Shown here: positions 13,314-47,273 of the stretch, in pieces
How the letters are laid out: each line of letters begins with the position of its first letter
Position numbering within the stretch: the stretch's first letter is position 1
Program-made: the position numbers and the translations under genes
Source: Minisyncoccia bacterium
GTDB lineage: Bacteria > Patescibacteriota > Minisyncoccia > Phycocordibacterales > UBA9973
DNA: 58,686 nt
NCBI GenBank assembly: GCA_965662335.1
Contig: CBFIGQ010000022.1
Location: 1-58,686 of the forward strand
Reading direction: 5' to 3'
The notes under the pieces: model-generated
Told to the model about the DNA's origin: nothing
Seen by the model: the letters and a program-made list of their open reading frames with translations, nothing else
Database searches by the model: none

Positions 13314-13841
13314 ATGTTCATGGATCCAGAAGCACTGCTTGCCGTGTGTAATCTCCAAACAACGGATAGTGTTGCTGATTTTGGTGCGGGTTCTGGATTT
13401 CTGGCACGTGCAGCGCTCAAGTATGTGCCGCAAGGAAATGTCTTTGCAATAGAAATCAATCGCGACATTGTTGCGCGCCTCACACGTGATGCGAGTGATA
13501 GTCATCTGGGAAATCTTCATCCACTGTGGGGAGATATTGAAGTTCTTGGTGGGTCAAAGCTGGCAAACGATAGTATGGACTTTATTATTCTATCGAATGT
13601 ACTCTTTCATTTAGAAGATAAAGATGGGTGTATGAAGGAGCTGCTGCGTGTACTCAAACCAGGTGGGAGAGTACTTGTCGTGGATTGGACTGAGTCATTT
13701 GGTGGTATGGGGCCAAGTCCTGACATGGTGTTTGATAAGGCACATGCCGAGGCGCTGTTTAGTCGGTTTGGACTCAGCAAGTTAGAGGTAGCTCTACCGG
13801 CGGGCGAGCATCACTATGCTATACTTTTTAGAAGAACATGA
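13314..13841 (+). CDS. Class I SAM-dependent methyltransferase
   Basis: VADFGAGSGFLA (motif I) and LKPGGRVLVVDW. I chose the ATG at 13314. Its stop overlaps the next start (ATGA). Confidence 0.8.
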   Translation: MFMDPEALLAVCNLQTTDSVADFGAGSGFLARAALKYVPQGNVFAIEINRDIVARLTRDASDSHLGNLHPLWGDIEVLGGSKLANDSMDFIILSNVLFHLEDKDGCMKELLRVLKPGGRVLVVDWTESFGGMGPSPDMVFDKAHAEALFSRFGLSKLEVALPAGEHHYAILFRRT

Positions 13842-15150: not shown

Positions 15151-16086
15151 ATGTATAAAAGATTTTTTATTATTATTTCAGCCCTTCTCCTTATTACAAG
15201 TAAGGTACACGCAGCTGCATATTTTCGATCTCTTGATATTACACAGCAGAATACAACCGCGGTATCGATTACTGCAACAGCAGCGATTCATATGGGTGGG
15301 GCAATCTATGTACACGAACTCGGTAGTCCCACTAAAATCAAAGAATGTAGTGCGATAGTATTTGAACCTGGTGTAGCAAGTTCACCGTGTGTGGTAACAG
15401 GGTTATCGCCCGGTACTACCTATGCAGCAACGGTATATTCATCATCCACCGAAACTGATCCTTTAACAAAATTCTTTTCTACAAATTCTCAGCCTACACA
15501 AGAAGTCCAAGACTTAAACCAAATCGCACAAAACACTACCCAACAAAACACCCAAACAGCTACAGCTGTAGCATCAACCGCCTCATCAAGCGCTGCTGTA
15601 GTAAGTGGAGATCAATGTCATGACGGCATTGATAATGATGTCGATGGAAAGGCTGATCAGTACGGGGTTGATTTTTTGAACCCAGATACGGGAAAGGGAG
15701 ACGGAGTGCTTGATCTTGAGCCTGATCCAAGCTGCTTTACTTCGACTGCAACTTCTGAAACTCCGGATGATGTACAAAGTAGTATTATTCCTTGTACGGA
15801 CAAGTGCACCTTTAGCGACTCTTTAAAACTTCTTAATAATATTATTAGTTTTATATTTAAAACACTGCTCATCCCTGTATTTATTCTTATTGTCATTTAT
15901 GTCGGTTTCAAATACATCACTGCCCAGGGCAACCCAGCAAAGGTTGTAAATCTTAAAAAGGTGCTCGGGAATGTTGTGGTAGGTATTATCATATTACTTT
16001 GTGCATGGCTTATTGTGCGAACACTTATGACCACACTCCTCAATGACAATTTTAAACAAGACGGTATAGAGTTTCTTGGAAACTAA
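15151..16086 (+). CDS. Pilin-module protein 1: signal peptide, FN3-like domain, acidic CxDGxDND motif, then a C-terminal VirB2/TrbC-like two-helix module
   Basis: Signal peptide LLLITSKVHA/AA; VTGLSPGTTYAATVYS; CHDGIDNDVDGKADQ; C-terminus IPVFILIVIYVGFKYITAQGNPAKVVNLKKVLGNVVVGIIILLCAWLI. Confidence 0.65.
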   Translation: MYKRFFIIISALLLITSKVHAAAYFRSLDITQQNTTAVSITATAAIHMGGAIYVHELGSPTKIKECSAIVFEPGVASSPCVVTGLSPGTTYAATVYSSSTETDPLTKFFSTNSQPTQEVQDLNQIAQNTTQQNTQTATAVASTASSSAAVVSGDQCHDGIDNDVDGKADQYGVDFLNPDTGKGDGVLDLEPDPSCFTSTATSETPDDVQSSIIPCTDKCTFSDSLKLLNNIISFIFKTLLIPVFILIVIYVGFKYITAQGNPAKVVNLKKVLGNVVVGIIILLCAWLIVRTLMTTLLNDNFKQDGIEFLGN

Positions 16087-16100
16087 CGATATACTTAGAC

Positions 16101-17174
16101 ATGATGAAATTTATTCCAAAAGCGATACTCTCTCTGATCCTATGGATAACGTTGAGTACTCCAGTACACGCAGATACGGTTGGTTTTAAGATATCGGTTA
16201 CCAATGTTGAACAAACCTCTGCTACTATCAGTATTCAGTCCACTGTTGATCATGAAGTAAAGGGTTCTATATATGTATACAAAGGTCAAAATGCAACATA
16301 TGTAGATAGTTATTCCGGGCCAGTACCTATATCATTCGCCTCAGGTGCTATTGTGCCGTATGACGCCGGAGTACTCAGTGCTAACACTACGTACAAAATA
16401 GAAGTAAAGGCAACTGATACTCTAGGAGTGACATATATAGGCAGTACTCAATTTACTACCAAGTCCGCAGCACAAAGCTCATCTGCTTCTACTAGTACTT
16501 CAACAGCAACAGGGTATAGCTGTCGCTCCACCCAAGCAGGCACAACTGACGCAACAGTGACTATTGAAGGCGCATCTCTCATTAGTCATCTTGTTAAGGC
16601 ACTCCCGCCTGGAGCGCTCAACAACTCATACGCCCTCATGCCAACACAGACTGCGTATGAAGGCACATTGGGTACATATACCTACAGTAGTCTTCTAGAG
16701 GGTAGTACCTATAAAATACTTATATTTGACGGGGCAGGAACACTCTTGGGACAGGTATGTACCGTAACTACAAAAGGTACCGCGCCAGGAGCAACTGCGA
16801 CTCAAGCGCCCGTTTCTAGTGCTATAGGTGGGGTATTTACGCCCGGTCAAAATCCGAATGCTGCAAGTGTTACCGCGAGTGGTGCACAGAGCGCGTTTTC
16901 TATCGGTGTACATCTACAAAATCCGCTCAAAGTTGATACGATCCAAGAAGCTATAGCCTATTTCCTCAAAGTAGTGATCAAAATAGCAATACCATTTCTC
17001 GTTGTGTTCTTTATTTGGTCTGGATTCAAGTTTGTCCTGGCACAAGGCAACCCGACTAAAGTCGCAGAAGCCAAGAAAATGTTTTGGTATACAGTCATTG
17101 GTATGTTGCTTATCCTTGGTGCATGGACCATCACAAATGCTATTATTGGAACAGTAAATACAATTGTTAATTAA
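16101..17174 (+). CDS. Pilin-module protein 2: signal peptide, two FN3-like segments, then a C-terminal VirB2/TrbC-like module
   Basis: LSTPVHA/DT; LSANTTYKIEVKATD; LLEGSTYKILIFD; C-terminus IPFLVVFFIWSGFKFVLAQGNPTKVAEAKKMFWYTVIGMLLILGAWTI. Confidence 0.65.
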   Translation: MMKFIPKAILSLILWITLSTPVHADTVGFKISVTNVEQTSATISIQSTVDHEVKGSIYVYKGQNATYVDSYSGPVPISFASGAIVPYDAGVLSANTTYKIEVKATDTLGVTYIGSTQFTTKSAAQSSSASTSTSTATGYSCRSTQAGTTDATVTIEGASLISHLVKALPPGALNNSYALMPTQTAYEGTLGTYTYSSLLEGSTYKILIFDGAGTLLGQVCTVTTKGTAPGATATQAPVSSAIGGVFTPGQNPNAASVTASGAQSAFSIGVHLQNPLKVDTIQEAIAYFLKVVIKIAIPFLVVFFIWSGFKFVLAQGNPTKVAEAKKMFWYTVIGMLLILGAWTITNAIIGTVNTIVN

Positions 17175-17176
17175 GT

Positions 17177-17950
17177 ATGAAACCCTTTTTTCTCACCATT
17201 TTTGCAATACTATTCATTTTTGTTGGTGTTGCAAGAGCACAAACGACGGTAAACTGCTCAGTTGTAAATGACCAAAACCACTCGATATGCTGTAGTGTGG
17301 GAGCAGGGACGGCAAATGCGCAGGCATGCTCTATATACGCCAATGCACAAGCTCATGGATATGCGAACGCAGAGCCTGCAGCAACCTCACCCGAGACTAC
17401 CACCACTGCAAATCAAAACACTGCTCCAGTTGGAGGGCAGTGTGATAATATTTTTAACTTTAATTTTAATGAATGTTGCGTCACGTACTACTCAGTAAAT
17501 AAAACAAAGTGTGATGCGGTAAGTCATGGATACTATACACCCACACTTCCAGGAGCGGTCGGTAATGGTATAGCTACGGGAGCAGTAAATAATGATCCGG
17601 CTCTCACACAACATGCTTCAAATGCGCCCTCCGGGTCGCTCGAGCTCCAGCAGTGCAGTAAAATAAAGTTCGTATCGGTATTTGATATATTGGTGTGGGT
17701 CAAATGTATTATATTGGTTGCGATTATACCGCTTATATTTGCTGCAGCACTCGTCTTTTTCCTCTGGGGTGTCATGAAGTTCATTGCCGCCGCAGATCCG
17801 GTCAAGAAACAAGAAGGCAAAAAGTTTATCATTGCGGGACTTATTGGACTGTTTGTCATGACAAGCCTCTGGGGTATCATTAAAATAGTCGGAAACACAC
17901 TTGGAACAGGATCAGCTGTACCCATCCTTCAGACTTCTTCACTCAAATAG
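17177..17950 (+). CDS. Pilin-module protein 3: signal peptide, Cys-rich ectodomain, then a C-terminal VirB2/TrbC-like module
   Basis: FVGVARA/QT; Cys-rich segments NCSVVNDQNHSICCSV and CDNIFNFNFNECC; C-terminus IFAAALVFFLWGVMKFIAAADPVKKQEGKKFIIAGLIGLFVMTSLWGII. Confidence 0.65.
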   Translation: MKPFFLTIFAILFIFVGVARAQTTVNCSVVNDQNHSICCSVGAGTANAQACSIYANAQAHGYANAEPAATSPETTTTANQNTAPVGGQCDNIFNFNFNECCVTYYSVNKTKCDAVSHGYYTPTLPGAVGNGIATGAVNNDPALTQHASNAPSGSLELQQCSKIKFVSVFDILVWVKCIILVAIIPLIFAAALVFFLWGVMKFIAAADPVKKQEGKKFIIAGLIGLFVMTSLWGIIKIVGNTLGTGSAVPILQTSSLK

Positions 17951-18031
17951 CTAGACAATGGTAGTAGTGTGGTATACTTTCACCATACCTGGCTTCGAAT
18001 ATTATCAGGTACTTATAACTAATATTATTCT

Positions 18032-18409
18032 ATGAAAAAAACAGCTCTTATTTCTTTTAGTGGTACTATGCTCGTGCCAGCACTTGCTCTCGCTCAGCAG
18101 TTCGGATACGTAAACAATGTTGTTGACGCAGGTGCGGGATGGCTTGATCGGTCTATTGTTATCATCATGGTGCTCATGACACTCTTTTTCTTGATTGGTG
18201 TGTTCCGCTACATCTCAGAAAAGGAGGCAGCAAAGCTTCCTGAGCGCCGCAAGATGATGCTCAATGGACTTCTCGGACTCTTTATTGCGGTTTCAGTATG
18301 GGGTATCATCAAGATAGCTGGAAATATCGTCGGTACAAATGGCAACAATGCTCCAGTTGGTCTCACTTGTCCTCCAGGAACATACCCAGTCGGTAACTCT
18401 TGTCAGTAA
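18032..18409 (+). CDS. Pilin-module protein 4 (short, classical VirB2/TrbC-like size)
   Basis: Signal peptide VPALALA/QQ, then IVIIMVLMTLFFLIGVFRYISEKEAAKLPERRKMMLNGLLGLFIAVSVWGII. Confidence 0.65.
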   Translation: MKKTALISFSGTMLVPALALAQQFGYVNNVVDAGAGWLDRSIVIIMVLMTLFFLIGVFRYISEKEAAKLPERRKMMLNGLLGLFIAVSVWGIIKIAGNIVGTNGNNAPVGLTCPPGTYPVGNSCQ

Positions 18410-18414
18410 TCCCT

Positions 18415-18744
18415 ATGATTGCGTACGCTGACTCACTTGATGACGTTATCTACAAGATCAATGCAAAGATTTTAAATCCTGCCATTGAACTTGCATTCAT
18501 CGTCGCGCTTGTCATATTTCTCTGGGGCATCATGGAGTATATCCGTGGCGGTGCGAGCCAGGAAAAGCGAGAAAAAGGACGTCAGCATATGTTGTGGGGT
18601 GTAGTAGGGTTTCTGATCATGTTTGGTGTGTATGGCATCATTACTATACTCACTAGTACGCTTGGTATCAAAGGAGCGACATTTACAAACGAAAAACAAA
18701 CATTCGAAGCGCCAACGCTCCAAGAGCTCAATTTCCCGAAATGA
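18415..18744 (+). CDS. Pilin-module protein 5 (short)
   Basis: ELAFIVALVIFLWGIMEYIRGGASQEKREKGRQHMLWGVVGFLIMFGVYGII. I chose the ATG at 18415; a TTG at 18400 is the alternative. Confidence 0.6.
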   Translation: MIAYADSLDDVIYKINAKILNPAIELAFIVALVIFLWGIMEYIRGGASQEKREKGRQHMLWGVVGFLIMFGVYGIITILTSTLGIKGATFTNEKQTFEAPTLQELNFPK

Positions 18745-20594: not shown

Positions 20595-20714
20595 AATAGT
20601 ATTTTTAAAGTTCAAAATATTGTTTAATTTGGGATTATTATAGCAGTAAAACATATATTTGTCAAATGAGAAAGATAGCAAAAAACTCCTATTTAAAGGA
20701 GTTTTTTGCGTTTG

Positions 20715-20787
20715 TGCCCCTAGCAGGGCTCGAACCTGCGACCGTCTCCTTAAGAGGGAGCTGCTCTACCAACTGAGCTATAGAGGC
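20715..20787 (-). tRNA. tRNA-Lys (anticodon CTT)
   Basis: The reverse complement reads GCCTCTATAGCTCAGTTGGTAGAGCAGCTCCCTCTTAAGGAGACGGTCGCAGGTTCGAGCCCTGCTAGGGGCA. Anticodon loop CTCTTAA. Confidence 0.93.
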
Positions 20788-20798
20788 ATATTTCGTTG

Positions 20799-20880
20799 TG
20801 CTGGAGAAGGGACTTGAACCCTTAAGCCTTGCGGCACTGGTTCCTAAGACCAGCGCGTATACCAATTCCGCCACTCCAGC
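20799..20880 (-). tRNA. tRNA-Leu (anticodon TAG)
   Basis: Class II tRNA with a long variable arm. Anticodon arm CTGGT-CTTAGGA-ACCAG; T-arm AGGGTTCAAGTCCCT. Confidence 0.92.
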
Positions 20881-20928
20881 ATGCGTCTGGTGATGCCATG
20901 ATACCGCAAAGTAACACCAACAGCAAGG

Positions 20929-21011
20929 TGCCCAAGGTGGGACTCGAACCCACACGACATTTCTGTCTGGGGATTTTAAGTCCCCTATGTCTACCATTCC
21001 ATCACTTGGGC
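20929..21011 (-). tRNA. tRNA-Leu (anticodon TAA)
   Basis: Class II tRNA. Anticodon arm GGGGA-CTTAAAA-TCCCC; acceptor GCCCAAG/CTTGGGC. Confidence 0.92.
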
Positions 21012-21015
21012 AGGG

Positions 21016-21087
21016 AGACCCGAGCGAGAATCGAACTCGCGTATAGAGATTTTGCAGATCTCCGCCTTACCACTTGGCCATCGGGTC
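21016..21087 (-). tRNA. tRNA-Cys (anticodon GCA)
   Basis: Acceptor GACCCGA/TCGGGTC; anticodon loop CTGCAAA; T-arm GCGAG-TTCGATT-CTCGC. Its 5' end lies 1 nt from the rbfA stop codon. Confidence 0.9.
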
Positions 21088-31522: not shown

Positions 31523-33196
31523 ATGACGCAGAGCGAAGCGCTTACCATACTAAAAACAGGGGCTAATGTTTTTTTGACAGGGGAGCCTGGTGCCGGCAAG
31601 ACATATACTATCAATGCGTATGTACAGTATTTACGAGAGCACGGTATTGAACCAGCAATCACAGCATCGACCGGTATCGCCGCAACTCATATTGGGGGGC
31701 AGACTATTCACTCATGGAGCGGTATCGGAATTCGCCGCTCGCTCTCTCCGTACGATCTCGATCAGCTCTCAACAACGGAATACCTCGTAAAGCGCATGCA
31801 GTCGACCAAGGTACTGATCATTGATGAAGTATCCATGATCGATGCGAGCATGCTCGATATGTTAGACTCTCTCGCTCGTACGCTTCGAGGAAACGATGAG
31901 GCATTTGGAGGTATGCAGGTCATACTAGTGGGAGACTTTTTTCAGCTTCCTCCTATTTCTCGTGGCGAAACTCACTTTGCATTTGAAAGCGACGCATGGA
32001 AGGCGCTCACTCCTATTGTGTGCTATTTGACCGAGCAACATCGCCAAGCTGATGAGAAATTTCTCGGTATTCTTTCTGCTATACGCTCAAACACCTATGA
32101 CGCGATACACCATGAGCATCTAGAAAAAAGAGTGATCCATGAAGATGTGTATGATCCAGACAAACCTCTGACAAGGCTCTATACTCACAACGCCGATGTA
32201 GACGCTCTCAACACTGACGAACTCGAGCGTCTTGGTGGTATTGCAACGAGTTTTACTATGCAAAGCAAAGGAAGGGAATCGCTCGTTCAAGGCCTCAAAA
32301 AAGGGTGCCTCTCGCCTGAGGTACTTTTCCTCAAGCGAGGTGCGACGGTCATGTGTACTAAAAACAATCCACAAAAAGGGTACGTGAATGGCACGCTCGG
32401 TACCGTGAATGGATTTGAACCGACGACTAAGTATCCAATCATTGAGACGCTCAAAGGGGAGCGGATTACGGTAGAGCCTGAGTCATGGGTACTTGAAGAA
32501 AACGGGAAGGAAAAGGCGCGGATAACCCAAGTACCGCTTCGACTTGCATGGGCTATTACCGTTCATAAAAGCCAGGGAATGAGTATGGATAGTGCAGTCA
32601 TGGATTTGCGTGAGGTTTTTGAATACGGACAAGGATATGTCGCACTCTCACGCGTCAGATCGCTCGAAGGTATACATTTGCTCGGATACAATACGAGGAC
32701 CTTTGAGGTACATCCGAAAATCCTTGCCATCGATGCACGATTTAAGCAGGATTCAGATAGAGCAGCAACACTTTTTGGTGACATGACAAAGAGCGATATC
32801 GCAAAGATGCAAGAGAATTTTATTCTTTCTATTGGTGGTTCACTTTCGACTACTGTTAGAAAAGAAAAAAAGGCAAAAGTTGATACGCTCGAAGCTACCC
32901 TCATGCTCGTACTGCAAGGCAAACTGGTCCCAATCATTGCGCGCGAGCGTGGCATGACTGAGCAAACGATATACGGACATATCGAGCGCCTTGTTGCAGA
33001 TAACAAACTCTCCTATGACGATATTGCATACCTCATAACACCAACTATACAGAAGGGATACAACGAAATAAAACGCACCTTTCAGACGATAGACACTACC
33101 AAGCTTGCTCCAGTGCGCGAAGTCCTCAAAGACAAATACTCCTACGACGAGCTTCGTATCGCACGCATGATGATGGTGCTTGAAGGAAAGGAATAG
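31523..33196 (+). CDS. Pif1/RecD-like SF1 DNA helicase with a C-terminal helix-turn-helix extension
   Basis: GEPGAGKT Walker A, LIIDEVSM Walker B, VGDFFQLPPI, and AITVHKSQGMS. Confidence 0.82.
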   Translation: MTQSEALTILKTGANVFLTGEPGAGKTYTINAYVQYLREHGIEPAITASTGIAATHIGGQTIHSWSGIGIRRSLSPYDLDQLSTTEYLVKRMQSTKVLIIDEVSMIDASMLDMLDSLARTLRGNDEAFGGMQVILVGDFFQLPPISRGETHFAFESDAWKALTPIVCYLTEQHRQADEKFLGILSAIRSNTYDAIHHEHLEKRVIHEDVYDPDKPLTRLYTHNADVDALNTDELERLGGIATSFTMQSKGRESLVQGLKKGCLSPEVLFLKRGATVMCTKNNPQKGYVNGTLGTVNGFEPTTKYPIIETLKGERITVEPESWVLEENGKEKARITQVPLRLAWAITVHKSQGMSMDSAVMDLREVFEYGQGYVALSRVRSLEGIHLLGYNTRTFEVHPKILAIDARFKQDSDRAATLFGDMTKSDIAKMQENFILSIGGSLSTTVRKEKKAKVDTLEATLMLVLQGKLVPIIARERGMTEQTIYGHIERLVADNKLSYDDIAYLITPTIQKGYNEIKRTFQTIDTTKLAPVREVLKDKYSYDELRIARMMMVLEGKE

Positions 33197-33238
33197 GGGA
33201 TTTATACTATACACATACAAGCATAACCACATACCACA

Positions 33239-33301
33239 ATGGCAAAAGGCAACGACAGTCAGCGCAAAGAAAAAAAGAAACCAAAAAAGGGAGCAAAATA
33301 G
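33239..33301 (+). CDS. Possible 20-aa highly basic micro-ORF (MAKGNDSQRKEKKKPKKGAK)
   Basis: ATG ORF immediately followed by a strong terminator. It is too short to validate. Confidence 0.25.
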   Translation: MAKGNDSQRKEKKKPKKGAK

Positions 33302-33304
33302 TCA

Positions 33305-33338
33305 AAGAAAGACCGCAGTGATGCGGTCTTTCTTTTTT
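33305..33338 (+). terminator. Rho-independent terminator
   Basis: gaaagaccgca-gtga-tgcggtctttc followed by TTTTTT. Confidence 0.85.
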
Positions 33339-33386
33339 GGATATGTGTGGTATGGTGGAAGTAAACAACATTTTAAAAATTGAATT

Positions 33387-34103
33387 ATGAAAAAAGCTTT
33401 AAATCCAGAAGGATTTTTTGATTTATTTAAATGGCTAAAAAACAAAAAGTTTGAAGAAATACCGAAGCGTGATTTGTTAGAAAGTGCAATACATTCAGGA
33501 GTTAAAAAATTTGTAAGAGGCAAGGAGGGTATTGAAAAATGCTTTAGAGGTTACTTTAATGAAAGCGAAGTCATTGTCTGTACGACGTGGAGTGATTTGC
33601 TACAAAAACCTAAGAAGAGCGATACCGGATGGGTACTCTCCATAAATAAGTATATGGAAGAACCTTTGTATTCAAAACCCATACGTAGAAGGTCTGACAA
33701 CTTCTTTTTGATTATGAAATCCTGGGTTAGTTGCCTGGTTGAAATTGCAGAAAAATGGCCAAGTTTCCCAAACACCAATGTAAAACTTTTGCTTGTTCGT
33801 GTTAAGGGGTTAATTCATATGCGTAAGTTCATTCCACCAACTCAATGCGGCCGTTATATTAAACGTAAACCTTACACCTTTTGGCTTGTAGAAATGGATT
33901 TAAGTATTGAAAATAGTAAGTTCTTGATACAGAAATATGGTAGTTACTACAAGTATCGTATCCGCGATGATGCTAACCGTATCGAAGCGGGAAAAGAACC
34001 TCGCTCAGTCGCACGTGTAAATAGGTACAACCAAAAACATGGTGTACAACATTCTGATGCCGAAGGTATCGATCCTGAACCGAATTATGATGTTCCAGAT
34101 TAA
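33387..34103 (+). CDS. Hypothetical basic protein (238 aa), translationally coupled to the coupling-ATPase gene
   Basis: AT-rich ATG ORF. Its stop overlaps the next start (TAATG). No motif recognised. Confidence 0.6.
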   Translation: MKKALNPEGFFDLFKWLKNKKFEEIPKRDLLESAIHSGVKKFVRGKEGIEKCFRGYFNESEVIVCTTWSDLLQKPKKSDTGWVLSINKYMEEPLYSKPIRRRSDNFFLIMKSWVSCLVEIAEKWPSFPNTNVKLLLVRVKGLIHMRKFIPPTQCGRYIKRKPYTFWLVEMDLSIENSKFLIQKYGSYYKYRIRDDANRIEAGKEPRSVARVNRYNQKHGVQHSDAEGIDPEPNYDVPD

Positions 34104-36049
34104 TGTATGCCGCTATAACAGCGGCTTTTTTATTTGCTATACTATCTACATCTATGGTTCCATACGATCCCGAACACATCACGTATTTTGCAGAGACTGA
34201 CGCGCGAGGGCAGCGCATCAAGTTTGGTATCAAGAGTCGCGACCGTACGCGCCACATGTATGTGATTGGTAAAAGTGGTGTGGGTAAGTCTACACTTCTT
34301 GAAAACATGGCGATTCAAGACATTGCGCATGGTGAAGGGGTAGCTGTGCTTGACCCGCACGGATCATTTGCCGAGAAGATGCTTGAGTATATTCCTGAGC
34401 ACCGCATCAAGGATGTCGTGTATTTTGCGCCGTTTAATACAGACAATCCTATTTCATTTAATGTGCTCGAAGATGTGGGGCATGACAAACGCCACCTCGT
34501 CGCCTCTGGACTCATGTCATCATTTAAGAAAATATGGGTAGATGCCTGGAGCGCGCGTATGGAGTACATCCTCAACAATATCTTGCTCGCACTCCTAGAG
34601 TATCCAGACGCAACTCTACTCGGCGTCAACCGTATGCTCTCGGATAAGGTATACCGCAATAAGGTTGTGGAAAATCTCACTGACCCATCGGTTAAAAGTT
34701 TTTGGACTGATGAATTTGCAAAGTATGGCGAGCGCTATATGCAAGAGGCGGGCGCTGCTATTCAAAACAAGATCGGTCAGTTTACTGCAAATCCACTCGT
34801 GCGTAACATCATCGGTCAGCCCAAGAGTACCTTTGATATTCGAAAGATTATGGATGAGCAAAAAATTCTCATCATCAACCTCTCAAAGGGGCGTATTGGT
34901 GAACAAAACACCTCACTACTTGGAAGTATGATTATTACTAAGATCTACCTTGGAGCGATGAGTCGCGCCGAGCTCACTGCGAGCCGCATGGGAGGGCTTT
35001 CCAACTTTTACTTTTATGTTGACGAATTCCAGTCATTTGCAAATGAGACATTTGCAGATATTCTCGCAGAGGCGCGTAAATATCGTCTCGCACTCATTAT
35101 TGCGCACCAGTATGTCGCGCAGATGGAAGAAAAAGTGCGTGATGCGGTATTTGGAAACGTAGGTACTACTATTAGTTTTCGTGTGGGGCCGCTCGATGCA
35201 GAGCTCCTTGAGAAAGTATTTGCGCCGCAGTTTACTGCAAATGACATCATCAACCTTGGTATGGCAGAGATATACCTCACCCTTATGATCAATGACATCG
35301 GTTCACAGCCGTTTTCAGCACGCACGCTCCCCCCACTCCAGCGTCCTGCTATAACCTTTAGAAACGATGCAATAGAATGGTCGCGTCAGGCATATGCCGC
35401 TCCAAAGGATACCGTTGAAACAAATATCCGAGAATGGTATGCCGATGGGCAAGATGAACTCAAGGCACTCGAAGAACAGGCAAAAAATAAAAAGAAACTC
35501 ACCTTTGCCGATGGACAAGCGCCACGACAATTTACTCCGCGCCAGCCTGATACAAGTGGCTTTATACGTAATACGCAGGCACCTGCACAAGGATTTATTA
35601 AAAAACAATTTTCTGCAAAGCCCGAAGCTCCCGCCCACAAGCCATTTGCAAAAGCGCTTAAGCAAACTACTCCAGTGAGTGAAGAGAGGGTAATTGTGAA
35701 GGATAAAGAAATCCATACCCATGAAGTCACCGTAAAAGCGTCTTCACAATTAAAGAACCTTCTCGATGCTATCGATGGAGCGCCAACTGATATCGAGGTA
35801 GAAGATTCAGCACCAAAGCCACCAGCTCCTTTCTCTGGTGAGAAACCGCTTCGCGAATCTATTCCACCAGTAAAGCACGCAGAACGTGGACCTACTGAAA
35901 AAAATAAAGATCTCCTGCGTGCAGCATTGCAGGGGATAAGTAAGCCAGTGAGTGCGCCAGCGCAAAAGAACAACGAGCAAAGTGAGCAGCCCAGAGCGCC
36001 CTTATCAACAGAAGTCTCTCAAGAAGATCTCAAAAAAGTCCTTGAATGA
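34103..36049 (+). CDS. VirD4/TraD-like type IV coupling protein-family P-loop ATPase with a ~200-aa disordered C-terminal tail
   Basis: YVIGKSGVGKST Walker A, VLDPHG, FYFYVDEFQSF Walker B, ARKYRLALIIAHQY. The tail is rich in P/A/Q/K. Confidence 0.7.
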   Translation: MYAAITAAFLFAILSTSMVPYDPEHITYFAETDARGQRIKFGIKSRDRTRHMYVIGKSGVGKSTLLENMAIQDIAHGEGVAVLDPHGSFAEKMLEYIPEHRIKDVVYFAPFNTDNPISFNVLEDVGHDKRHLVASGLMSSFKKIWVDAWSARMEYILNNILLALLEYPDATLLGVNRMLSDKVYRNKVVENLTDPSVKSFWTDEFAKYGERYMQEAGAAIQNKIGQFTANPLVRNIIGQPKSTFDIRKIMDEQKILIINLSKGRIGEQNTSLLGSMIITKIYLGAMSRAELTASRMGGLSNFYFYVDEFQSFANETFADILAEARKYRLALIIAHQYVAQMEEKVRDAVFGNVGTTISFRVGPLDAELLEKVFAPQFTANDIINLGMAEIYLTLMINDIGSQPFSARTLPPLQRPAITFRNDAIEWSRQAYAAPKDTVETNIREWYADGQDELKALEEQAKNKKKLTFADGQAPRQFTPRQPDTSGFIRNTQAPAQGFIKKQFSAKPEAPAHKPFAKALKQTTPVSEERVIVKDKEIHTHEVTVKASSQLKNLLDAIDGAPTDIEVEDSAPKPPAPFSGEKPLRESIPPVKHAERGPTEKNKDLLRAALQGISKPVSAPAQKNNEQSEQPRAPLSTEVSQEDLKKVLE

Positions 36050-37359
36050 GAACAATATGTTTCGTAGGAGTACTTGTGTGGTGTATACCACTTTTTGTGC
36101 ATGCCAGTGTTCGTATTACCGAAGTTGCGTGGATGGGAACGACTGAGAGTCAGTATTCTGAGTGGCTTGAGCTGTATAACGATGGAAGTGAGAGTGTAAA
36201 TCTAGCCGGATGGAAATTGCTTGAAGGATCGGGCGCAACTATTTTTACCCTTACCAAAACTATTGGATCTGGGGAGTATCTACTCGTCGAGCGCACAACT
36301 GCAAGCGCACCTGATGCAGTGCCGAGTGTAAATGATGAATCTGGCCCCTTTGGTGGTGGAGGACTTGCAAACACGGGAGAAGATATCACACTCGTTACTT
36401 CAGGAGGGGTGACTGAAGATGAGCTCGACTATGCTTCAGGCTGGCCGGCGGGAGATGCAACTACCAAAGAAACAATGCAGTGGAACGGGTCTGGTTGGTC
36501 AACCGCACCAGCTACACCCAAGAAAGGGTATGACGGAAGTGGTGCTCAAGAACCAGATGACGCAGATGAACTGCCCACAGACCCTATCCCGACAGTTTCT
36601 CCTAATAAGCCAGGTATTCAATTTGTTGTACCAAAGACTGTATGGGTGCATACAGAATATGAGTACATCGCGAAACCAATGCTCGAGTTTAACTATCAGC
36701 TTCTTACGGGAGATTTGCTCTGGAATATGGGTGATGGCACACTCATACATCAAAATACTGTCGCTCCTATTTATCATACATACGAATATCCAGGTACCTA
36801 TACTATCCATTACTCATACAAAGACCCGTACAATGAGCATCAACCACTGGAGGGTACCGTCGCGGTAGTAGTTAAAAGCCCAGAGCTTGTCGCAAGTTCT
36901 ACTGACAATGGAAAGGCAGTTCTTCTTGAAAATAACAGTTCTCAGCCAGTTGATCTGTCGGGGTGGTCACTAGCTGCAGATGGTAGATCAATTGCACTGC
37001 CTGTAGACACCGTCGTCGCTGCAAAGGCTCAAGTTGTACTGCCGCTCCGCGCAGTCGGTGTGTATAGCGCAAAACAGATAACGCTCATTGATCCTTCAGG
37101 TTCAGTTTTAACTATTCCGAAAATAGTTAGTGTGAGTACTCCAGTTGATGAGACAGTCTATGATCCTATAGATACTCAAGACTTTGTTGCTGAGGCGAGT
37201 AGTGGAGTGGTAGAACGAACTACTTCTTCTACACCAATACAAAAGCGCACCAAATACATTATATTTGGTGCGCTTGCGTTGTTCGTTATTGGCTTGTCGA
37301 TACTCCTCGAGCGGTTTATGGCCCGACAGGAGTATTCGTCTGTGGAGTTGAAAGAGTAG
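36046..37359 (+). CDS. Secreted, C-terminally anchored protein with two lamin-tail-like domains and a PKD-like domain
   Basis: Signal peptide IPLFVHA/SV. LTD-like VRITEVAWMG...EWLELYNDGSESVNLAGWKL and LLENNSSQPVDLSGWSL. PKD-like WNMGDGT...HTYEYPGTYTI. C-terminal TM helix. The start overlaps the upstream stop (ATGA). Confidence 0.7.
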   Translation: MRTICFVGVLVWCIPLFVHASVRITEVAWMGTTESQYSEWLELYNDGSESVNLAGWKLLEGSGATIFTLTKTIGSGEYLLVERTTASAPDAVPSVNDESGPFGGGGLANTGEDITLVTSGGVTEDELDYASGWPAGDATTKETMQWNGSGWSTAPATPKKGYDGSGAQEPDDADELPTDPIPTVSPNKPGIQFVVPKTVWVHTEYEYIAKPMLEFNYQLLTGDLLWNMGDGTLIHQNTVAPIYHTYEYPGTYTIHYSYKDPYNEHQPLEGTVAVVVKSPELVASSTDNGKAVLLENNSSQPVDLSGWSLAADGRSIALPVDTVVAAKAQVVLPLRAVGVYSAKQITLIDPSGSVLTIPKIVSVSTPVDETVYDPIDTQDFVAEASSGVVERTTSSTPIQKRTKYIIFGALALFVIGLSILLERFMARQEYSSVELKE

Positions 37360-38074
37360 CTGAAGCAGAGGCGCTCGTTGCTGTTGTTGTGGCTGCGCTC
37401 GTCGAGAGGTATGCTGCATTTGTTGCAGATACATCAGAGGCAATAGCGTCAACTTCTTTTGAGAGGATTTTTACTTCCTGGGTTGATACTTTTGCGAGTG
37501 TACTATCTAGCGCAGCTGCCGCATCAGGGTTTGCGAGTGTTTCTTTGTTTGCCTTGAGTGTGTCCTCAAGTGTTGCTGTTGCTGCAAGGGCAGCAGAAGG
37601 AGCAGTATCACTGAGGGTTGAGAGGTCTGCTGAGAGCGCCTCTATGTGTTCATCGAGTGCTTTTTGAACGGTTGCTTGTTTCGCCTTGGTGAGGGTCTTG
37701 GTTTCAGAGAGTGTCTTTATTTCATTGACACGAGTTTCAACACGCTTTGCATTGTACGCCACTTTTTCTTCTGGAGTTTTTTGAAATAGTCCTTTTACTT
37801 CTTCGTTTACATTGAGCTTAAACGCGTAGAGTGGATCGCCAGGGAGCGCGCTATCAGCAACTGCAGACACAGTACCCCCTACGAGCAAGAAAAACATGAA
37901 GCTTGAAAGCGCCATGCGAAGTCCCACATGCAGTCCTTTATGAAAGAGTGATGGAACACTACCTTTTGGATGTGTTTGCATGTAGTGTACGAGATGTGCT
38001 CGAACAGCCCCGCGTTCAGTGTCGCTGAGACGAAGTTGCTTGAGTGAGTTAAGTTTTTGTAAATTATGTTCCAT
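37316..38074 (-). CDS. Putative anti-sigma factor (single TM helix plus a DUF5667-like extracytoplasmic helical domain)
   Basis: It overlaps the stop of the ECF sigma gene. TM helix ALSSFMFFLLVGGTVSAVA, then GDPLYAFKLNVNEEVKGLF. Confidence 0.55.
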   Translation of the reverse strand: MEHNLQKLNSLKQLRLSDTERGAVRAHLVHYMQTHPKGSVPSLFHKGLHVGLRMALSSFMFFLLVGGTVSAVADSALPGDPLYAFKLNVNEEVKGLFQKTPEEKVAYNAKRVETRVNEIKTLSETKTLTKAKQATVQKALDEHIEALSADLSTLSDTAPSAALAATATLEDTLKANKETLANPDAAAALDSTLAKVSTQEVKILSKEVDAIASDVSATNAAYLSTSAATTTATSASASATLSTPQTNTPVGP

Positions 38075-38609
38075 GTGAATATGTGTCGCGCAATTTTTTA
38101 ATGATTCGATGTATATGAACCGTCATGGCATTGACGCTTTTGCCATAGAGACTTGCTATTTCTTCAATAGGTTTTTCCTCGGTGTACCGCAGAAATATAA
38201 TCTGCTTGCTATCTTCGTCGAGTGTCTCAAGAAGGGTTCGAATTTCTTCGATACTATCTTGGCGCAGTATCTCGTCGACACTATCAGTACTTCCCGGATC
38301 AAACCCTCCATCTAGAAGGGTATCAAGTGAGCCGGACTTTGCCTTTTTGTAGTAGTCAATAAGTGCGTTTTTTGCAGCTCGGTAGAGAAATGCTTCAGGG
38401 TATTCAATGGACTTACCTTGCGAGAGATAGAGCCATGTCTTGGTAAATACGTCCTGAGTCAGATCTACTGCCAATGCACGGTTGCCAATACGGAAATAGA
38501 TAAAACGAAATAGTGCATCTTCATGAGAAGTGAGCATGTCGAGGAAGAGTGCCTCGGTATCCTGTTGTGCTGGATCAGTCTTTCCTTGTGACGACTGAGG
38601 GTGCTGCAT
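38064..38609 (-). CDS. ECF-type RNA polymerase sigma factor
   Basis: Region 2 (FRFIYFRIGNRALAVDLTQDVFTKTW) and region 4 (IIFLRYTEEKPIEEIASLYGKSVNAMTVHIHR). Confidence 0.82.
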   Translation of the reverse strand: MQHPQSSQGKTDPAQQDTEALFLDMLTSHEDALFRFIYFRIGNRALAVDLTQDVFTKTWLYLSQGKSIEYPEAFLYRAAKNALIDYYKKAKSGSLDTLLDGGFDPGSTDSVDEILRQDSIEEIRTLLETLDEDSKQIIFLRYTEEKPIEEIASLYGKSVNAMTVHIHRIIKKLRDTYSHGT

Positions 38610-47091: not shown

Positions 47092-47095
47092 AGAG

Positions 47096-47177
47096 TGCCC
47101 GAAGGGAGACTTGAACTCCCACACATTGCTGCATACGCACCTGAAGCGTACGTGTCTACCAATTCCACCATTCGGGC
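47096..47177 (-). tRNA. tRNA-Leu (anticodon CAG)
   Basis: Class II tRNA. Anticodon arm TACGC-TTCAGGT-GCGTA; acceptor GCCCGAA/TTCGGGC. Confidence 0.92.
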
Positions 47178-47190
47178 ATATTTTTCTGTG

Positions 47191-47273
47191 TGCCGGAAGA
47201 GAGACTTGAACTCTCAAGGGATTGCTCCCGGTCGATTTTGAGTCGACTGCGTCTACCATTCCGCCATTCCGGC
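47191..47273 (-). tRNA. tRNA-Leu (anticodon CAA)
   Basis: Class II tRNA. Anticodon arm GTCGA-CTCAAAA-TCGAC; acceptor GCCGGAA/TTCCGGC. Confidence 0.92.

What the first reader, a model, noticed from the sequence alone, without database searches (positions are those of the whole stretch)
31523..37359. Stand-alone DNA-translocation-like module: Pif1/RecD helicase, unknown 238-aa protein, VirD4/TraD-like coupling ATPase and a lamin-tail/PKD surface protein
Seen: three ORFs are translationally coupled. ORF 33387-34103 ends TAATG into 34103-36049, which ends ATGA into 36046-37359. They sit directly downstream of an SF1 helicase (GEPGAGKT, LIIDEVSM, VHKSQGMS). The middle protein has the Walker A GKSGVGKST, VLDPHG, the Walker B YVDEFQSF and ARKYRLALIIAHQY, plus a ~200-aa P/A/Q/K-rich tail. 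The last protein has a signal peptide, two lamin-tail-like domains (EWLELYNDGSESVNLAGWKL; NNSSQPVDLSGWSL), a PKD-like unit and a C-terminal anchor. Established: the VDEFQ/ARKYG-type C-terminal ATPase core is typical of VirD4/TraD/TraG coupling proteins, which feed DNA to secretion channels, and RecD-like helicase domains occur in conjugative relaxases. Unusual: I can see no relaxase (no HUH or Tyr motif), no VirB4 or VirB11, and no channel components. The 238-aa partner is AT-rich with no recognisable motif. The nearest pilin-like genes are 15 kb away. dprA, a DNA-uptake processing gene, is also in the window. Inference: this may be a minimal, possibly CPR-specific DNA import or export device in which an extracellular LTD protein binds DNA or a surface and the coupling ATPase powers translocation.
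Basis: partly seen in the sequence, partly recalled or inferred. Interest (0 to 1): 0.72.

Follow-up and report, generated by a model that had tools for sequence, protein, structure and literature searches.

The report
Membrane-anchor-less coupling ATPase with surface-protein partner
This is not a four-gene DNA-transfer module: only two of the genes form a conserved chromosomal operon in Paceibacteria (candidate phyla radiation bacteria), pairing a very highly conserved, soluble relative of the conjugation "coupling" ATPase with a secreted lamin-tail-domain surface protein whose function is still unknown.

Summary
The four ORFs and every quoted motif are present. The "module" breaks into three transcription units.

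- **Helicase:** the Pif1/RecD helicase (31523-33196) ends at a strong terminator.
- **238-aa ORF:** it has its own terminator, at 34109-34135. It belongs to a small, fast-evolving orphan family found only in the window's own clade.
- **TAATG "coupling":** this is an ORF-calling artefact. The ATPase really starts at ATG 34154, so it has no membrane helix.
- **ATPase-LTD operon:** only ATPase (34154-36049) and LTD protein (36046-37359, ATGA overlap) form a conserved unit. They are adjacent in 43 of 76 species loci, across several deep clades, while both flanks vary.

The ATPase classifies as a VirD4/TrwB-type coupling protein by Pfam, by fold (DotL, TrwB, Cagβ) and by about 30% identity to genuine Gram-positive plasmid coupling proteins. 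It lacks a transmembrane domain, an adjacent relaxase and virB4. Its core is 87% identical between species whose GltX is 58% identical. Its disordered tail carries two conserved short motifs.

The "pilin-like genes 15 kb away" are VirB2-type type IV secretion (T4SS) pilins. Orphan coupling-protein homologues in Patescibacteria were reported in 2025 with no assigned function. The LTD pairing appears to be undescribed. I favour a substrate-receptor or motor role at an envelope channel; this is inference.

The parts
31523..33196 (+). Pif1/RecD2-family SF1B helicase with a C-terminal HTH_40 domain. It is a separate transcription unit and NOT part of the conserved pair.
   Evidence: PIF1 scores 120 bits and HTH_40 58.6 bits. 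It matches NCBIfam TraA/RecD2 models only over the helicase part and has no relaxase domain. It is adjacent to the ATPase in only 4 of 80 species loci. In L084 it lies 5.5 kb and six genes away.
33304..33335 (.). Perfect 14-bp-stem hairpin with flanking T/A runs. It is a terminator-like element between the helicase and the 238-aa gene.
   Evidence: The fold gives dG -20.3 kcal/mol, z -6.4, and 0 of 200 shuffles fold as well.
33387..34103 (+). 238-aa orphan protein. It is AT-rich, clade-restricted and fast-evolving, and is not a conserved partner of the ATPase.
   Evidence: No hit in four HMM libraries. The family has only 76 representative clusters among 1.84 billion proteins. Most members carry a CxxC zinc ribbon, which is lost in this copy. 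AF2 gives pLDDT 88 and pTM 0.81. There is no significant fold match in PDB or BFVD. Synteny was examined.
34109..34135 (+). Intrinsic-terminator-like hairpin plus T-run, immediately after the stop codon of the 238-aa gene. It lies inside the spurious 5' extension of the ATPase ORF.
   Evidence: dG -10.4, z -2.4.
34115..34143 (+). Sigma-70-type promoter-like site: ATAACA, 17-nt spacer, TG-TATACT. It ends 10 nt before ATG 34154, which would give a near-leaderless mRNA. That last point is inference.
   Evidence: This is a consensus match only.
34154..36049 (+). VirD4/TrwB-type coupling-protein (T4CP) homologue, 631 aa from the corrected start, with no transmembrane segment.
   Evidence: The start is set by the homologue alignment. 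There is no hydrophobic segment. Pfam scores are TrwB_AAD_bind 40.3, T4SS-DNA_transf 36.3, DUF87 30.0 and TraG-D_C 25.1 bits, all above their cut-offs. In the AF2 model, residue blocks 51-270 and 391-430 have pLDDT mostly 81-95; the rest of the core is lower and residues 336-386 are below 50. Top Foldseek hits are DotL at 1.4e-7, TrwB at 1.7e-7 (TM 0.57) and Cagβ at 6e-7.
34268..34294 (+). Walker A motif, GKSGVGKST.
   Evidence: Invariant in 48 and in 60 homologues. It aligns to the TrwB P-loop.
34481..34858 (+). All-alpha domain inserted in the nucleotide-binding domain, about residues 110-235 of the 631-aa protein.
   Evidence: AF2 secondary structure. The Pfam TrwB_AAD_bind match spans residues 44-361.
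35009..35032 (+). Walker B motif, YFYVDEFQ. It is followed by the invariant ARKY...AHQY sensor region.
   Evidence: Invariant columns.
35474..36046 (+). C-terminal tail of about 190 aa, predicted disordered and rich in K, A, P, E and Q. It holds two conserved short helical motifs: PFxGEKPLRExIPPVKxAERGPTEKNxDLLxAALQ at 35828-35932, and the terminal EVSxEDLKKVLE at 36011-36046.
   Evidence: pLDDT is below 50 except for short helices. The motifs are conserved in the alignments. Recognisable forms of both motifs occur across all 84 loci examined.
36046..37359 (+). Exported surface protein, translationally overlapped (ATGA) with the ATPase. Layout: signal-like segment (36046-36120), LTD 1 (about 36103-36432), PKD/Ig-like unit (about 36715-36834), LTD 2 (about 36877-37125), Ser/Thr-rich linker, TM anchor (37246-37326) and a short non-conserved cytoplasmic tail.
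   Evidence: Pfam LTD scores 74.3 bits over 2 stretches, and PKD 21.2 bits, just under its cut-off. The orthologue termini are compared. It directly follows the ATPase in 43 of 76 species loci with a median gap of about 4 bp.
37243..37275 (-). Perfect 14-bp hairpin inside the 3' end of the LTD gene. It is terminator-like for the convergent anti-sigma/ECF-sigma operon (37316-38609, minus strand), which overlaps the LTD gene by 44 nt.
   Evidence: Pfam DUF5667 and Sigma70_r2/r4 were called on those genes.
15151..18744 (+). CONTEXT ONLY; any link to the ATPase is inferred. An array of five paralogous VirB2-like T4SS pilin genes: 15151-16086, 16101-17174, 17177-17950, 18032-18409 and 18400-18744.
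   Evidence: PF18895 T4SS_pilin scores 33, 41.8 and 34.1 bits, above the 26.6 cut-off, and 22.1 bits for 17177-17950. For 18032-18409 the only evidence is the look of its C-terminal hydrophobic hairpin.

Best explanation
WHAT IT IS (well supported)
The region holds three independent transcription units in the chromosomal core of a Paceibacteria (Nomurabacteria-like) genome.
1. A housekeeping-type Pif1/RecD helicase.
2. A lineage-restricted orphan gene of 238 aa.
3. A two-gene operon. The first gene is a soluble VirD4/TrwB-type coupling-protein paralogue with no transmembrane domain. The second is a Sec-exported, C-terminally anchored LTD-PKD-LTD surface protein.
Only unit 3 is conserved across the class.

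HOW IT MOST LIKELY WORKS (inferred)
- The ATPase assembles into a ring NTPase at the cytoplasmic face of the membrane.
- Having no membrane anchor of its own, it is recruited by a partner. Its all-alpha domain and the two conserved short helical motifs in its long disordered tail are the likely docking sites. This would parallel DotL and TraD, which use C-terminal tails to bind adaptors.
- It uses ATP to hand a polymeric substrate (nucleic acid or unfolded protein) to an envelope channel.
- The most plausible channel is the relaxase-less chromosomal T4SS of Patescibacteria. That system's VirB2-like pilins are encoded 15 kb upstream in this window.
- The LTD protein acts on the outer face of the same envelope site as a binding or adaptor module. 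Its ligand is unknown; DNA, cell-wall glycan and host surface are all possible.

The extreme conservation of the core indicates a housekeeping-level role, not a mobile-element role.
For: SHOWN
- Start-codon correction and absence of a TM segment.
- Terminators and a promoter-like site that separate the units.
- T4CP classification:
  - Pfam scores above the gathering cut-offs.
  - Fold ranking of DotL, TrwB and Cagβ ahead of HerA, DndH and VirB4, with an inserted all-alpha domain.
  - The nearest cultured relatives, at about 30% identity, are genuine MPF_FATA coupling proteins. Each sits beside a replication-relaxation relaxase, a VirB4-like ATPase and TcpD/E or PrgI genes in Bacillus pLS20-like and Embleya plasmids.
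- ATPase-LTD adjacency in 43 of 76 species loci, at a median gap of about 4 bp, in at least 4 deep clades of the ATPase tree.
- That adjacency holds while both flanks vary. Upstream can be SpoU, MsrA, the orphan gene, UvrABC, a PBP5-YkuD fusion or DUF4015. Downstream can be anti-sigma/sigma or glycosyltransferases.
- Chromosomal core context and near absence from viral contigs.
- Core identity of 87% to L002, where GltX is 58%, the helicase 67% and NDH 67%. Core identity is 71% to the distant L073.
- Tail motifs conserved in all loci.
- T4SS pilins in the window.

FROM THE LITERATURE
- 5,713 VirD4-type homologues occur in 2,918 of 3,035 Patescibacteria genomes. Only 148 lie near virB4, and relaxases are almost absent (PMC12102498).
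- 'T4CP lacking TMD' is a recognised subfamily that works through a small membrane partner, as with TraJ and TraI of pIP501 (PMC7434980).
Against: - No physical or genetic link to the T4SS is shown. virB4 is not in the window or in any 10-kb flank.
- T4CP homologues are found in more genomes (96%) than VirB4 (80%) (PMC12102498). Some therefore probably work without a T4SS.
- The T4CP homologue of Ca. Southlakia epibionticum was not essential for epibiotic growth although the T4SS genes were (PMC12102498). Its orthology to this family was not tested.
- 33 of 76 species loci lack the LTD gene within 10 kb.
- The LTD protein's cytoplasmic tail is not conserved, and some orthologues lack the TM anchor altogether. 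It is therefore unlikely to be the membrane tether.
- In compact genomes, short overlaps also occur between unrelated genes.
- Neighbourhood conservation points to envelope biogenesis rather than secretion: Mur ligases, DUF4015, PBP5/YkuD and glycosyltransferases.
- The AF2 model is only moderately confident overall (mean pLDDT 68). TM-scores to TrwB are about 0.5-0.57.
Confidence: 0.5

Rival explanations
1. The helicase, the 238-aa protein, the ATPase and the LTD protein together form a stand-alone, minimal DNA import or export device.
For: The four genes share a strand and are contiguous. The same order is kept in the three closest species, L001-L003. The ATPase is of the DNA-coupling type. 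LTD domains are found fused to extracellular nucleases and ComEC-like proteins (Pfam description; PMC5118699).
Against: Terminators separate all three units. The TAATG coupling is an ORF artefact. The helicase is adjacent in only 4 of 80 loci. The 238-aa family is confined to one clade, is separated from the ATPase by MsrA or other genes in L010 and L084, and its nearest homologue lies elsewhere in another genome. A soluble ATPase with a single-pass protein gives no channel.
Confidence: 0.05
2. A competence-type nucleic-acid uptake motor that does not depend on the T4SS. The LTD protein captures extracellular or host DNA or RNA at the surface. The ATPase pulls it through ComEC or another channel, doing the job of ComFA.
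For: Patescibacteria lack de novo nucleotide synthesis and depend on scavenged nucleic acid (bioRxiv 10.64898/2026.06.21.733656). This would explain the housekeeping-level conservation and the presence in 96% of genomes (PMC12102498). LTD is associated with extracellular nucleases and ComEC-like proteins (PMC5118699; weak ExeM hit). dprA is in the window.
Against: No ComEC, ComF or nuclease gene is linked to the pair in any of 84 loci. DNA binding by this LTD protein is untested. 43% of loci lack the LTD gene. Loss of comEC did not affect viability in S. epibionticum (cited in PMC12857230).
Confidence: 0.15
3. An exapted FtsK-like housekeeping translocase that acts in chromosome segregation, cell division or envelope growth.
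For: In most Paceibacteria the gene sits in a same-strand array: Mur ligases, RsmI, DUF4015, a PBP5/YkuD fusion, the ATPase, LTD, glycosyltransferases and CofD/YvcK-like. T4CPs and FtsK are sister families. The P/Q/K-rich linker-like tail recalls FtsK. Conservation is very high and the family is nearly universal.
Against: The architecture is that of a T4CP, with an all-alpha insertion and no alpha/beta/gamma domains or N-terminal TMs. No divisome gene is adjacent. I could not test whether these genomes lack ftsK. Saccharibacteria do have ftsK (PMC10768705). Conserved gene order in compact genomes is weak functional evidence.
Confidence: 0.15
4. The ATPase and the LTD protein are functionally unrelated neighbours. 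The adjacency is inherited gene order.
For: Gene overlaps between unrelated genes occur elsewhere in the window, for example at 13838/13841. 33 of 76 loci lack the LTD gene. The LTD protein has a Sec-type signal and no conserved cytoplasmic part.
Against: The adjacency persists in at least 4 deep clades while both flanks change. Gaps of about 4 bp are kept.
Confidence: 0.2
5. An anti-phage defence ATPase of the HerA, MADS or DndH type.
For: PADLOC mad8 scores 44.6 bits and there are weak HerA hits. DUF87 scores above its cut-off. HerA and the DndH C-domain are among the fold hits.
Against: T4CP structures rank first. No defence partner genes are adjacent. The gene sits at a fixed core-genome position and is very conserved, unlike defence islands. 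L087 does carry a different, short T4CP-like paralogue beside PemK and a methyltransferase, which shows what an island copy looks like.
Confidence: 0.03

Closest known systems
VirD4/TrwB/Cagβ/DotL type IV coupling proteins
   Same: P-loop nucleotide-binding domain with an inserted all-alpha domain. Pfam TrwB_AAD_bind and T4SS-DNA_transf score above their cut-offs. These are the best fold matches. The long C-terminal tail with short conserved motifs recalls the adaptor-binding tails of DotL and TraD.
   Different: No N-terminal transmembrane domain. No adjacent relaxase, virB4 or other T4SS gene. Chromosomal core gene. Only about 15% sequence identity to solved T4CPs. Far below the NCBIfam equivalog cut-offs.
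Coupling proteins of MPF_FATA conjugative elements (Bacillus pLS20-like 913-aa 'DUF87' protein; Embleya/Streptomyces plasmid T4CP)
   Same: These are the closest cultured relatives: about 30% identity over about 360-400 aa (E 1e-31 to 7e-55). This fits the MPF_FATA ancestry proposed for the Patescibacteria T4SS (PMC12102498). PHROG phrog_5156 scores 193 bits.
   Different: Those proteins are 800-900 aa with a long N-terminal region. They sit next to a replication-relaxation relaxase and VirB4, PrgI or TcpD/E genes. None of these is present here.
T4CPs lacking a TMD (TraJ of pIP501 with its membrane partner TraI)
   Same: A soluble coupling ATPase that presumably needs a membrane partner (PMC7434980). 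A single-pass membrane protein is encoded immediately next to it.
   Different: It is not in a tra operon. The neighbouring membrane protein has a large LTD ectodomain and a non-conserved cytoplasmic tail, and it lacks the anchor in some orthologues.
Orphan T4CP homologues of Patescibacteria (Quiñonero-Coronel et al. 2025, PMC12102498)
   Same: This is the same phenomenon, and almost certainly this gene belongs to that set: VirD4-type homologues in 96% of genomes, nearly all far from virB4, with no relaxase and a possibly 'exapted' function. NCBI names the family 'type IV secretion system DNA-binding domain-containing protein'.
   Different: That study did not report the missing TMD, the conserved tail motifs, the LTD operon partner or the envelope-gene neighbourhood. 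There is no 'LTD' or 'lamin' in its text or in the supplements held.
LTD-containing extracellular nucleases and ComEC-like proteins (ExeM, Hvo_1477, haloarchaeal ComA)
   Same: A secreted or membrane-anchored protein with lamin-tail domains (PMC5118699).
   Different: No nuclease, metallo-beta-lactamase or phosphoesterase domain is present here. It has only LTD, PKD-like and LTD units plus an anchor.
FtsK/SpoIIIE and Streptomyces TraB dsDNA translocases
   Same: Sister ATPase superfamily. A low-complexity P/Q-rich segment. Cell-wall-gene neighbourhood.
   Different: The domain order and architecture differ, with an all-alpha insertion and no TM or gamma domain. These proteins are not among the top fold hits.

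Membership tests
VirD4/TrwB-type coupling protein (T4CP) | P-loop nucleotide-binding domain with intact Walker A and Walker B motifs | tested here: met
   GKSGVGKST and YFYVDEFQ are invariant in 48 and in 60 homologues. The motifs align to the TrwB P-loop.
VirD4/TrwB-type coupling protein (T4CP) | Family HMM scores above the curated threshold | tested here: met
   TrwB_AAD_bind scores 40.3 against 20.5. T4SS-DNA_transf scores 36.3 against 20.1. TraG-D_C scores 25.1 against 22.
VirD4/TrwB-type coupling protein (T4CP) | All-alpha domain inserted in the nucleotide-binding domain, and an overall fold like TrwB | tested here: met
   AF2 shows a helical block at residues 110-235. Foldseek gives DotL at 1.4e-7, TrwB at 1.7e-7 (TM 0.57) and Cagβ at 6e-7, ahead of HerA at 1.7e-6 and VirB4 at 2e-4. 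The margin over HerA is modest.
VirD4/TrwB-type coupling protein (T4CP) | N-terminal transmembrane domain | tested here: not met
   The true start is at 34154. No hydrophobic segment is found in the 631-aa protein.
VirD4/TrwB-type coupling protein (T4CP) | Encoded with a relaxase and/or T4SS (virB4) genes | tested here: not met
   No such gene lies within 10 kb in the window or in the loci with Pfam-annotated gene calls (L081-L084, L087, L088) or in L073. Neighbours in the other loci were only clustered and their conserved clusters annotated; unclustered genes were not scanned. VirB2-like pilins lie 15 kb away.
VirD4/TrwB-type coupling protein (T4CP) | Meets the NCBIfam equivalog cut-offs (TraD, VirD4-like CD1115) | tested here: not met
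   The best score is 46.9 bits against a cut-off of 250.
VirD4/TrwB-type coupling protein (T4CP) | Hexameric ATPase that couples a substrate to a T4SS channel | not testable with these tools
   This needs biochemistry, genetics or complex prediction.
TMD-less T4CP subfamily (TraJ of pIP501 type) | Soluble T4CP with an adjacent small membrane-protein partner | tested here: inconclusive
   The ATPase has no TMD (met). The adjacent LTD protein is single-pass, but its cytoplasmic tail is not conserved and 4 orthologues lack the anchor.
HerA/FtsK-type translocases (DUF87) | HerA HAS-barrel, or FtsK N-terminal TMs with alpha/beta/gamma domains, plus a nuclease or defence partner | tested here: not met
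   DUF87 scores 30 bits, above its cut-off. However, only a short N-terminal beta-hairpin precedes the P-loop. There are no TMs and no NurA or defence neighbours.
Conjugative relaxase-helicase (TraA/TrwC/TraI type), for ORF 31523-33196 | N-terminal HUH/Tyr relaxase domain fused to the helicase | tested here: not met
   Helicase motif I starts at residue 20. TraA_Ti and PRK13889 match only their helicase portions, at 59 and 36 bits against cut-offs of 590 and 1015.
Pif1/RecD2 SF1B helicase, for ORF 31523-33196 | PIF1 helicase core, 2B/SH3 domain, C-terminal HTH_40 | tested here: met
   PIF1 scores 120.2 bits, Pif1_2B_dom 29.7 and HTH_40 58.6.
Rel_LS20-type (replication-relaxation) relaxase, for ORF 33387-34103 | Profile similarity to the relaxases encoded next to the nearest plasmid T4CPs | tested here: not met
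   hhalign of the 50-sequence family profile against the Bacillus and Embleya relaxases gives probabilities of 0.3% and 0.1%.
Lamin-tail-domain (LTD) proteins, for ORF 36046-37359 | LTD HMM above the cut-off | tested here: met
   LTD scores 74.3 bits against 34.3, over two stretches. The PKD unit scores 21.2 against 23.5, just below its cut-off.

The most novel reading that the evidence does not exclude
A nearly universal, soluble coupling ATPase and its LTD ectoprotein form the energy-coupling and capture parts of a nucleic-acid IMPORT route. By this route nucleotide-auxotrophic Patescibacteria would pull host or environmental DNA or RNA through their relaxase-less T4SS/pilus, or through ComEC. 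In effect, the conjugation coupling machinery would be running in reverse as a feeding organ.
Probability: 0.12. Interest if true: 0.85.

Novelty: new variant of a known kind. Interest (0 to 1): 0.45.

Why it matters
Patescibacteria make up a large share of bacterial diversity. They cannot make their own nucleotides, and they need a relaxase-less T4SS to live on their hosts. What that system moves, and what energises substrate selection, is unknown.

A coupling-protein paralogue that is more conserved than an aminoacyl-tRNA synthetase is a concrete, testable handle on that question. It has lost its membrane anchor, carries conserved docking motifs and is kept in an operon with a surface LTD protein.

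There is also a practical result. The finding corrects a widespread start-codon mis-annotation, which invents a membrane helix by translating a terminator. It also removes two genes from a supposed module.

Tried and rejected
1. **Translational coupling of the 238-aa ORF to the ATPase: rejected.** The homologue starts, a terminator and a promoter-like site all argue against it.
2. **The 238-aa protein as a hidden relaxase or known domain: rejected.**
   - No hit in Pfam, NCBIfam, PADLOC or PHROGs.
   - Nothing from a family profile against PDB sequences.
   - Scanning 50 members against Pfam gave only scattered zinc-ribbon hits.
   - Foldseek against PDB and BFVD gave nothing significant.
   - hhalign against Rel_LS20-type relaxases was negative.
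3. **Helicase as a relaxase-helicase: rejected**.
4. **Defence-system reading:** PADLOC gives only generic ATPase hits and there are no partner genes.
5. **Phage or mobile-element origin:** one hit in 2.9 million viral contigs. No repeats or oriT-like structure beyond the terminators. No Rfam element other than tRNAs.
6. **LTD protein as the membrane tether of the ATPase: weakened.** The cytoplasmic tails are not conserved and some orthologues have no anchor.
7. **Sequence search of the LTD protein against PDB:** nothing useful.
8. **Literature searches** for T4CP with LTD, and for LTD with CPR or competence, found no description of the pair. Wang et al. 2023 does not mention VirD4 or T4CP in its main text.
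9. **The script machine was lost.** A planned table of core-domain identities across all loci was replaced by two pairwise comparisons. A scan of all window ORFs for Replic_Relax-like proteins was not done.
10. **The third large protein search was not spent** on the LTD protein, because it returns no genomic context.

Full report
**Observation.** Pfam assigns them as follows:
- 31523-33196 is a PIF1 helicase (120 bits) with a Pif1 2B domain and a C-terminal HTH_40.
- 33387-34103 matches nothing.
- 34103-36049 matches TrwB_AAD_bind (40.3 bits), T4SS-DNA_transf (36.3), DUF87 (30.0) and TraG-D_C (25.1), all above their gathering scores.
- 36046-37359 has two LTD stretches (74.3 bits) and a PKD unit just below its cut-off.

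NCBIfam and PADLOC add only sub-threshold hits to TraD or VirD4-like models, mad8 and HerA. Hydropathy shows a signal-like segment and a C-terminal TM in the LTD protein. The 238-aa gene is AT-rich.

**Transcription units.** The claimed three-gene translational coupling does not hold.
- In an alignment of 48 homologues, 35 begin at the Met equivalent to ATG 34154 (consensus M-x-VPYDPEHITYF). The N-terminal extensions of the others are unrelated to one another.
- The 17 extra codons of the window ORF overlie GCCGCT-ATAAC-AGCGGC-TTTTTTATTT. This is a terminator-like hairpin placed 6 nt after the stop of the 238-aa gene. They also overlie a TG-extended -10 promoter-like site that ends 10 nt before ATG 34154.
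- The hydrophobic 'AAFLFAIL' peptide is therefore a translated terminator. The real protein has 631 aa and no TM segment.
- The helicase gene is also followed by a very stable hairpin with a T-run (dG -20.3, z -6.4).
- Only the ATPase-LTD junction (ATGA, 36046-36049) is a genuine overlap.

**The ATPase.**
- The family is very large in Patescibacteria. All 8,000 scored candidates were significant, and the best 120 were 61-83% identical by local alignment. NCBI names them 'type IV secretion system DNA-binding domain-containing protein'.
- Sequence similarity to solved structures is limited to the TrwB P-loop region.
- An AF2 model built on 60 homologues has a largely confident core: residue blocks 51-270 and 391-430 have pLDDT mostly 81-95, while residues 336-386 are below 50. 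It shows a helical insertion at residues 110-235 and a disordered tail of about 190 aa.
- Foldseek ranks DotL, TrwB and Cagβ first (E about 1e-7, TM up to 0.57). HerA (1.7e-6), the DndH C-domain and VirB4 follow.
- tblastn against plasmids finds 707 records, all below 60% identity. The Bacillus pLS20-like hit lies in a 913-aa protein next to a replication-relaxation relaxase, TcpD/TcpE and a VirB4-like ATPase. The Embleya hit lies in a T4CP flanked by PrgI, a VirB4-like ATPase, a relaxase and NlpC/P60.
- The protein is thus a true T4CP homologue of MPF_FATA ancestry. It lacks the TMD and every conjugation neighbour.
- The tail carries two motifs conserved in all 84 loci examined: a mid-tail '...N..LLKAAL..' helix and a C-terminal '(E/D)hP..(E/D).L+KhL' peptide.

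**Comparative genomics.** I compared the window with 80 species-representative loci from GTDB and with metagenome contigs.
- The ATPase is always present, by construction of the search.
- The LTD gene follows it directly in 43 of 76 loci that have room downstream, with a median gap of about 4 bp. This holds in at least four deep branches of the ATPase tree. The LTD-less loci form coherent clades, which suggests losses.
- The helicase is adjacent only in the four closest loci.
- The 238-aa family occurs within three genes upstream only in the window's own clade: L001-L004, L009, L010 and L084. It diverges to 20-30% identity there while the ATPase core stays above 85%. Its GC is usually below that of the locus. 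Its nearest homologue (48%) sits in an unrelated neighbourhood.
- Flanks vary. In the window's order the block is ATPase, LTD, then a convergent DUF5667 anti-sigma and ECF sigma, then an NDH-2-like oxidoreductase. What lies upstream changes: the helicase, SpoU, MsrA or UvrABC.
- In most other Paceibacteria the gene lies in a same-strand array of envelope genes: Mur ligases, RsmI, a small unknown protein, DUF4015, a PBP5-YkuD fusion, the ATPase, LTD where present, an epimerase and many GT4 glycosyltransferases, and a CofD-like gene.
- The ATPase core is 87% identical to L002, where GltX is 58% and the helicase 67%. It is 71% identical to the distant L073.
- The gene is essentially absent from viral contigs.
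- The rest of the window is ordinary core genome: pyruvate kinase, HisS, GyrA, IF-2, ClpB, GltX, ParB, RelA, TopA, DprA, SerS and an FtsQ-like gene.

**T4SS context.** The 'pilin-like genes 15 kb away' match PF18895 T4SS_pilin, that is, VirB2-like pilins. They are part of the Patescibacteria T4SS described by Quiñonero-Coronel et al. 2025 (PMC12102498). That paper reports:
- VirB4 in 2,417 of 3,035 genomes.
- 5,713 VirD4-type homologues in 2,918 genomes, only 148 of them near virB4.
- Almost no relaxases.
- A non-essential t4cp in Ca. S. epibionticum, with the comment that exaptation 'cannot be ruled out'.

A review recognises TMD-less T4CPs that work with a small membrane partner (PMC7434980). 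I found no paper that links a T4CP with an LTD protein.

**The 238-aa protein.** It belongs to a small family: 76 clusters among 1.84 billion representatives. The AF2 model is confident (pLDDT 88), but no fold match appears in PDB or BFVD. Most members have a CxxC zinc ribbon that this copy has lost. It is unrelated to the relaxases that accompany the nearest plasmid T4CPs. I treat it as a lineage-specific accessory gene of unknown function.

**Mechanism.**
- *Shown:* a soluble T4CP-fold P-loop protein with intact catalytic motifs; an operon with an exported LTD protein; a core-genome position; very strong purifying selection; and conserved tail peptides.
- *Inferred:* ring assembly, recruitment to the membrane through the tail or the all-alpha domain, and ATP-driven delivery of a polymer to an envelope channel. 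The chromosomal T4SS is the most economical candidate for that channel.
- *Rivals that stay open:* a T4SS-independent uptake motor, an FtsK-like housekeeping role (suggested by the envelope-gene neighbourhood and by the family being more widespread than VirB4), and a non-functional adjacency with the LTD gene.
- *Disfavoured:* the four-gene stand-alone device and a defence role.

**Limits.**
- Genes in the fetched loci were called with a simple longest-ORF heuristic, so gap sizes and some neighbours are approximate.
- The neighbour-joining tree used 51 loci, because a regular-expression filter dropped the others.
- Many record titles say 'Saccharibacteria', yet those sequences group with Nomurabacteria and Paceibacteria records.
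- No whole-genome co-occurrence test could be run.

**Verdict.** The real feature is a conserved operon pairing a TMD-less coupling-ATPase homologue with an LTD protein. The ATPase belongs to the already reported set of orphan Patescibacteria T4CP homologues. The newly noted traits are the missing anchor, the tail motifs, the LTD partner and the envelope-gene context. Interest is moderate.

Noticed in passing
window 15151-18744 (+): An array of five paralogous genes whose C-termini match, or resemble, PF18895 T4SS_pilin (VirB2-like). Each has a different Ser/Thr-rich N-terminal ectodomain. It is preceded by an SBP_bac_1 protein (13838-15148). No virB4 is in the window.
   Followed up: partly
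window 33387-34103 (+); relatives L001:817-1479, L002:9232-9969, L004:6770-7468, L010:1014-1856, L084:7202-7912: An orphan protein family: 76 clusters in 1.84 billion representatives. The predicted fold is confident (pLDDT 88) but has no PDB or BFVD match. It has a central CxxC zinc ribbon (lost in the window copy) and a basic tail. It evolves much faster than its neighbours and usually has lower GC than its locus.
   Followed up: yes
window 34103-34153: Public gene calls, including the one for this contig, extend the ATPase by 17 codons across a terminator and promoter. This creates a false N-terminal 'transmembrane helix' (AAFLFAIL). The same artefact is visible in P0005 and other homologues.
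   Followed up: yes
window 37243-37359: The LTD gene and the convergent DUF5667 anti-sigma gene overlap by 44 nt (37316-37359). A perfect 14-bp hairpin (37243-37275) lies inside the LTD coding sequence, in its TM-anchor codons. It looks like the terminator of the sigma/anti-sigma operon.
   Followed up: partly
L087:16290-17606: The same genome that carries an orthologous ATPase-LTD pair also has a second, short (438 aa) TrwB_AAD_bind-like gene. It sits beside a PemK toxin, an N6_N4 methyltransferase and an HTH regulator. This is an accessory-island paralogue, which may explain the roughly 2 T4CP homologues per genome reported in the literature.
   Followed up: no
L089 (Sulfitobacter mediterraneus plasmid NZ_CP081110.1, 99994-101181): The closest non-Patescibacteria relative of the ATPase core (39.6% identity, E 4e-85) is a 395-aa orphan gene. 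It sits among a recombinase and transposases on a non-mobilizable alphaproteobacterial plasmid, with no T4SS genes nearby.
   Followed up: partly
L014-L079, e.g. L073:1099-21290: A long, same-strand, conserved envelope super-cluster in Paceibacteria: Mur ligases, RsmI, an unknown protein of about 85 aa, DUF4015, a PBP5-YkuD fusion, the T4CP-like ATPase, LTD where present, an epimerase, up to eight tandem GT4 glycosyltransferases and a CofD-like gene.
   Followed up: partly
window 20714-21087 (-) and 47095-47273 (-): Two tRNA clusters: Lys-Leu-Leu-Cys and Leu-Leu. Rfam finds nothing else in the window.
   Followed up: no
loci L001-L080 (record titles): Many MAG records titled 'uncultured Candidatus Saccharibacteria bacterium' carry ATPase-LTD loci that are collinear with, and interleaved in the tree with, Nomurabacteria, Paceibacteria, Kaiserbacteria and Zambryskibacteria records. 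The titles look like generic or incorrect taxonomic labels.
   Followed up: no
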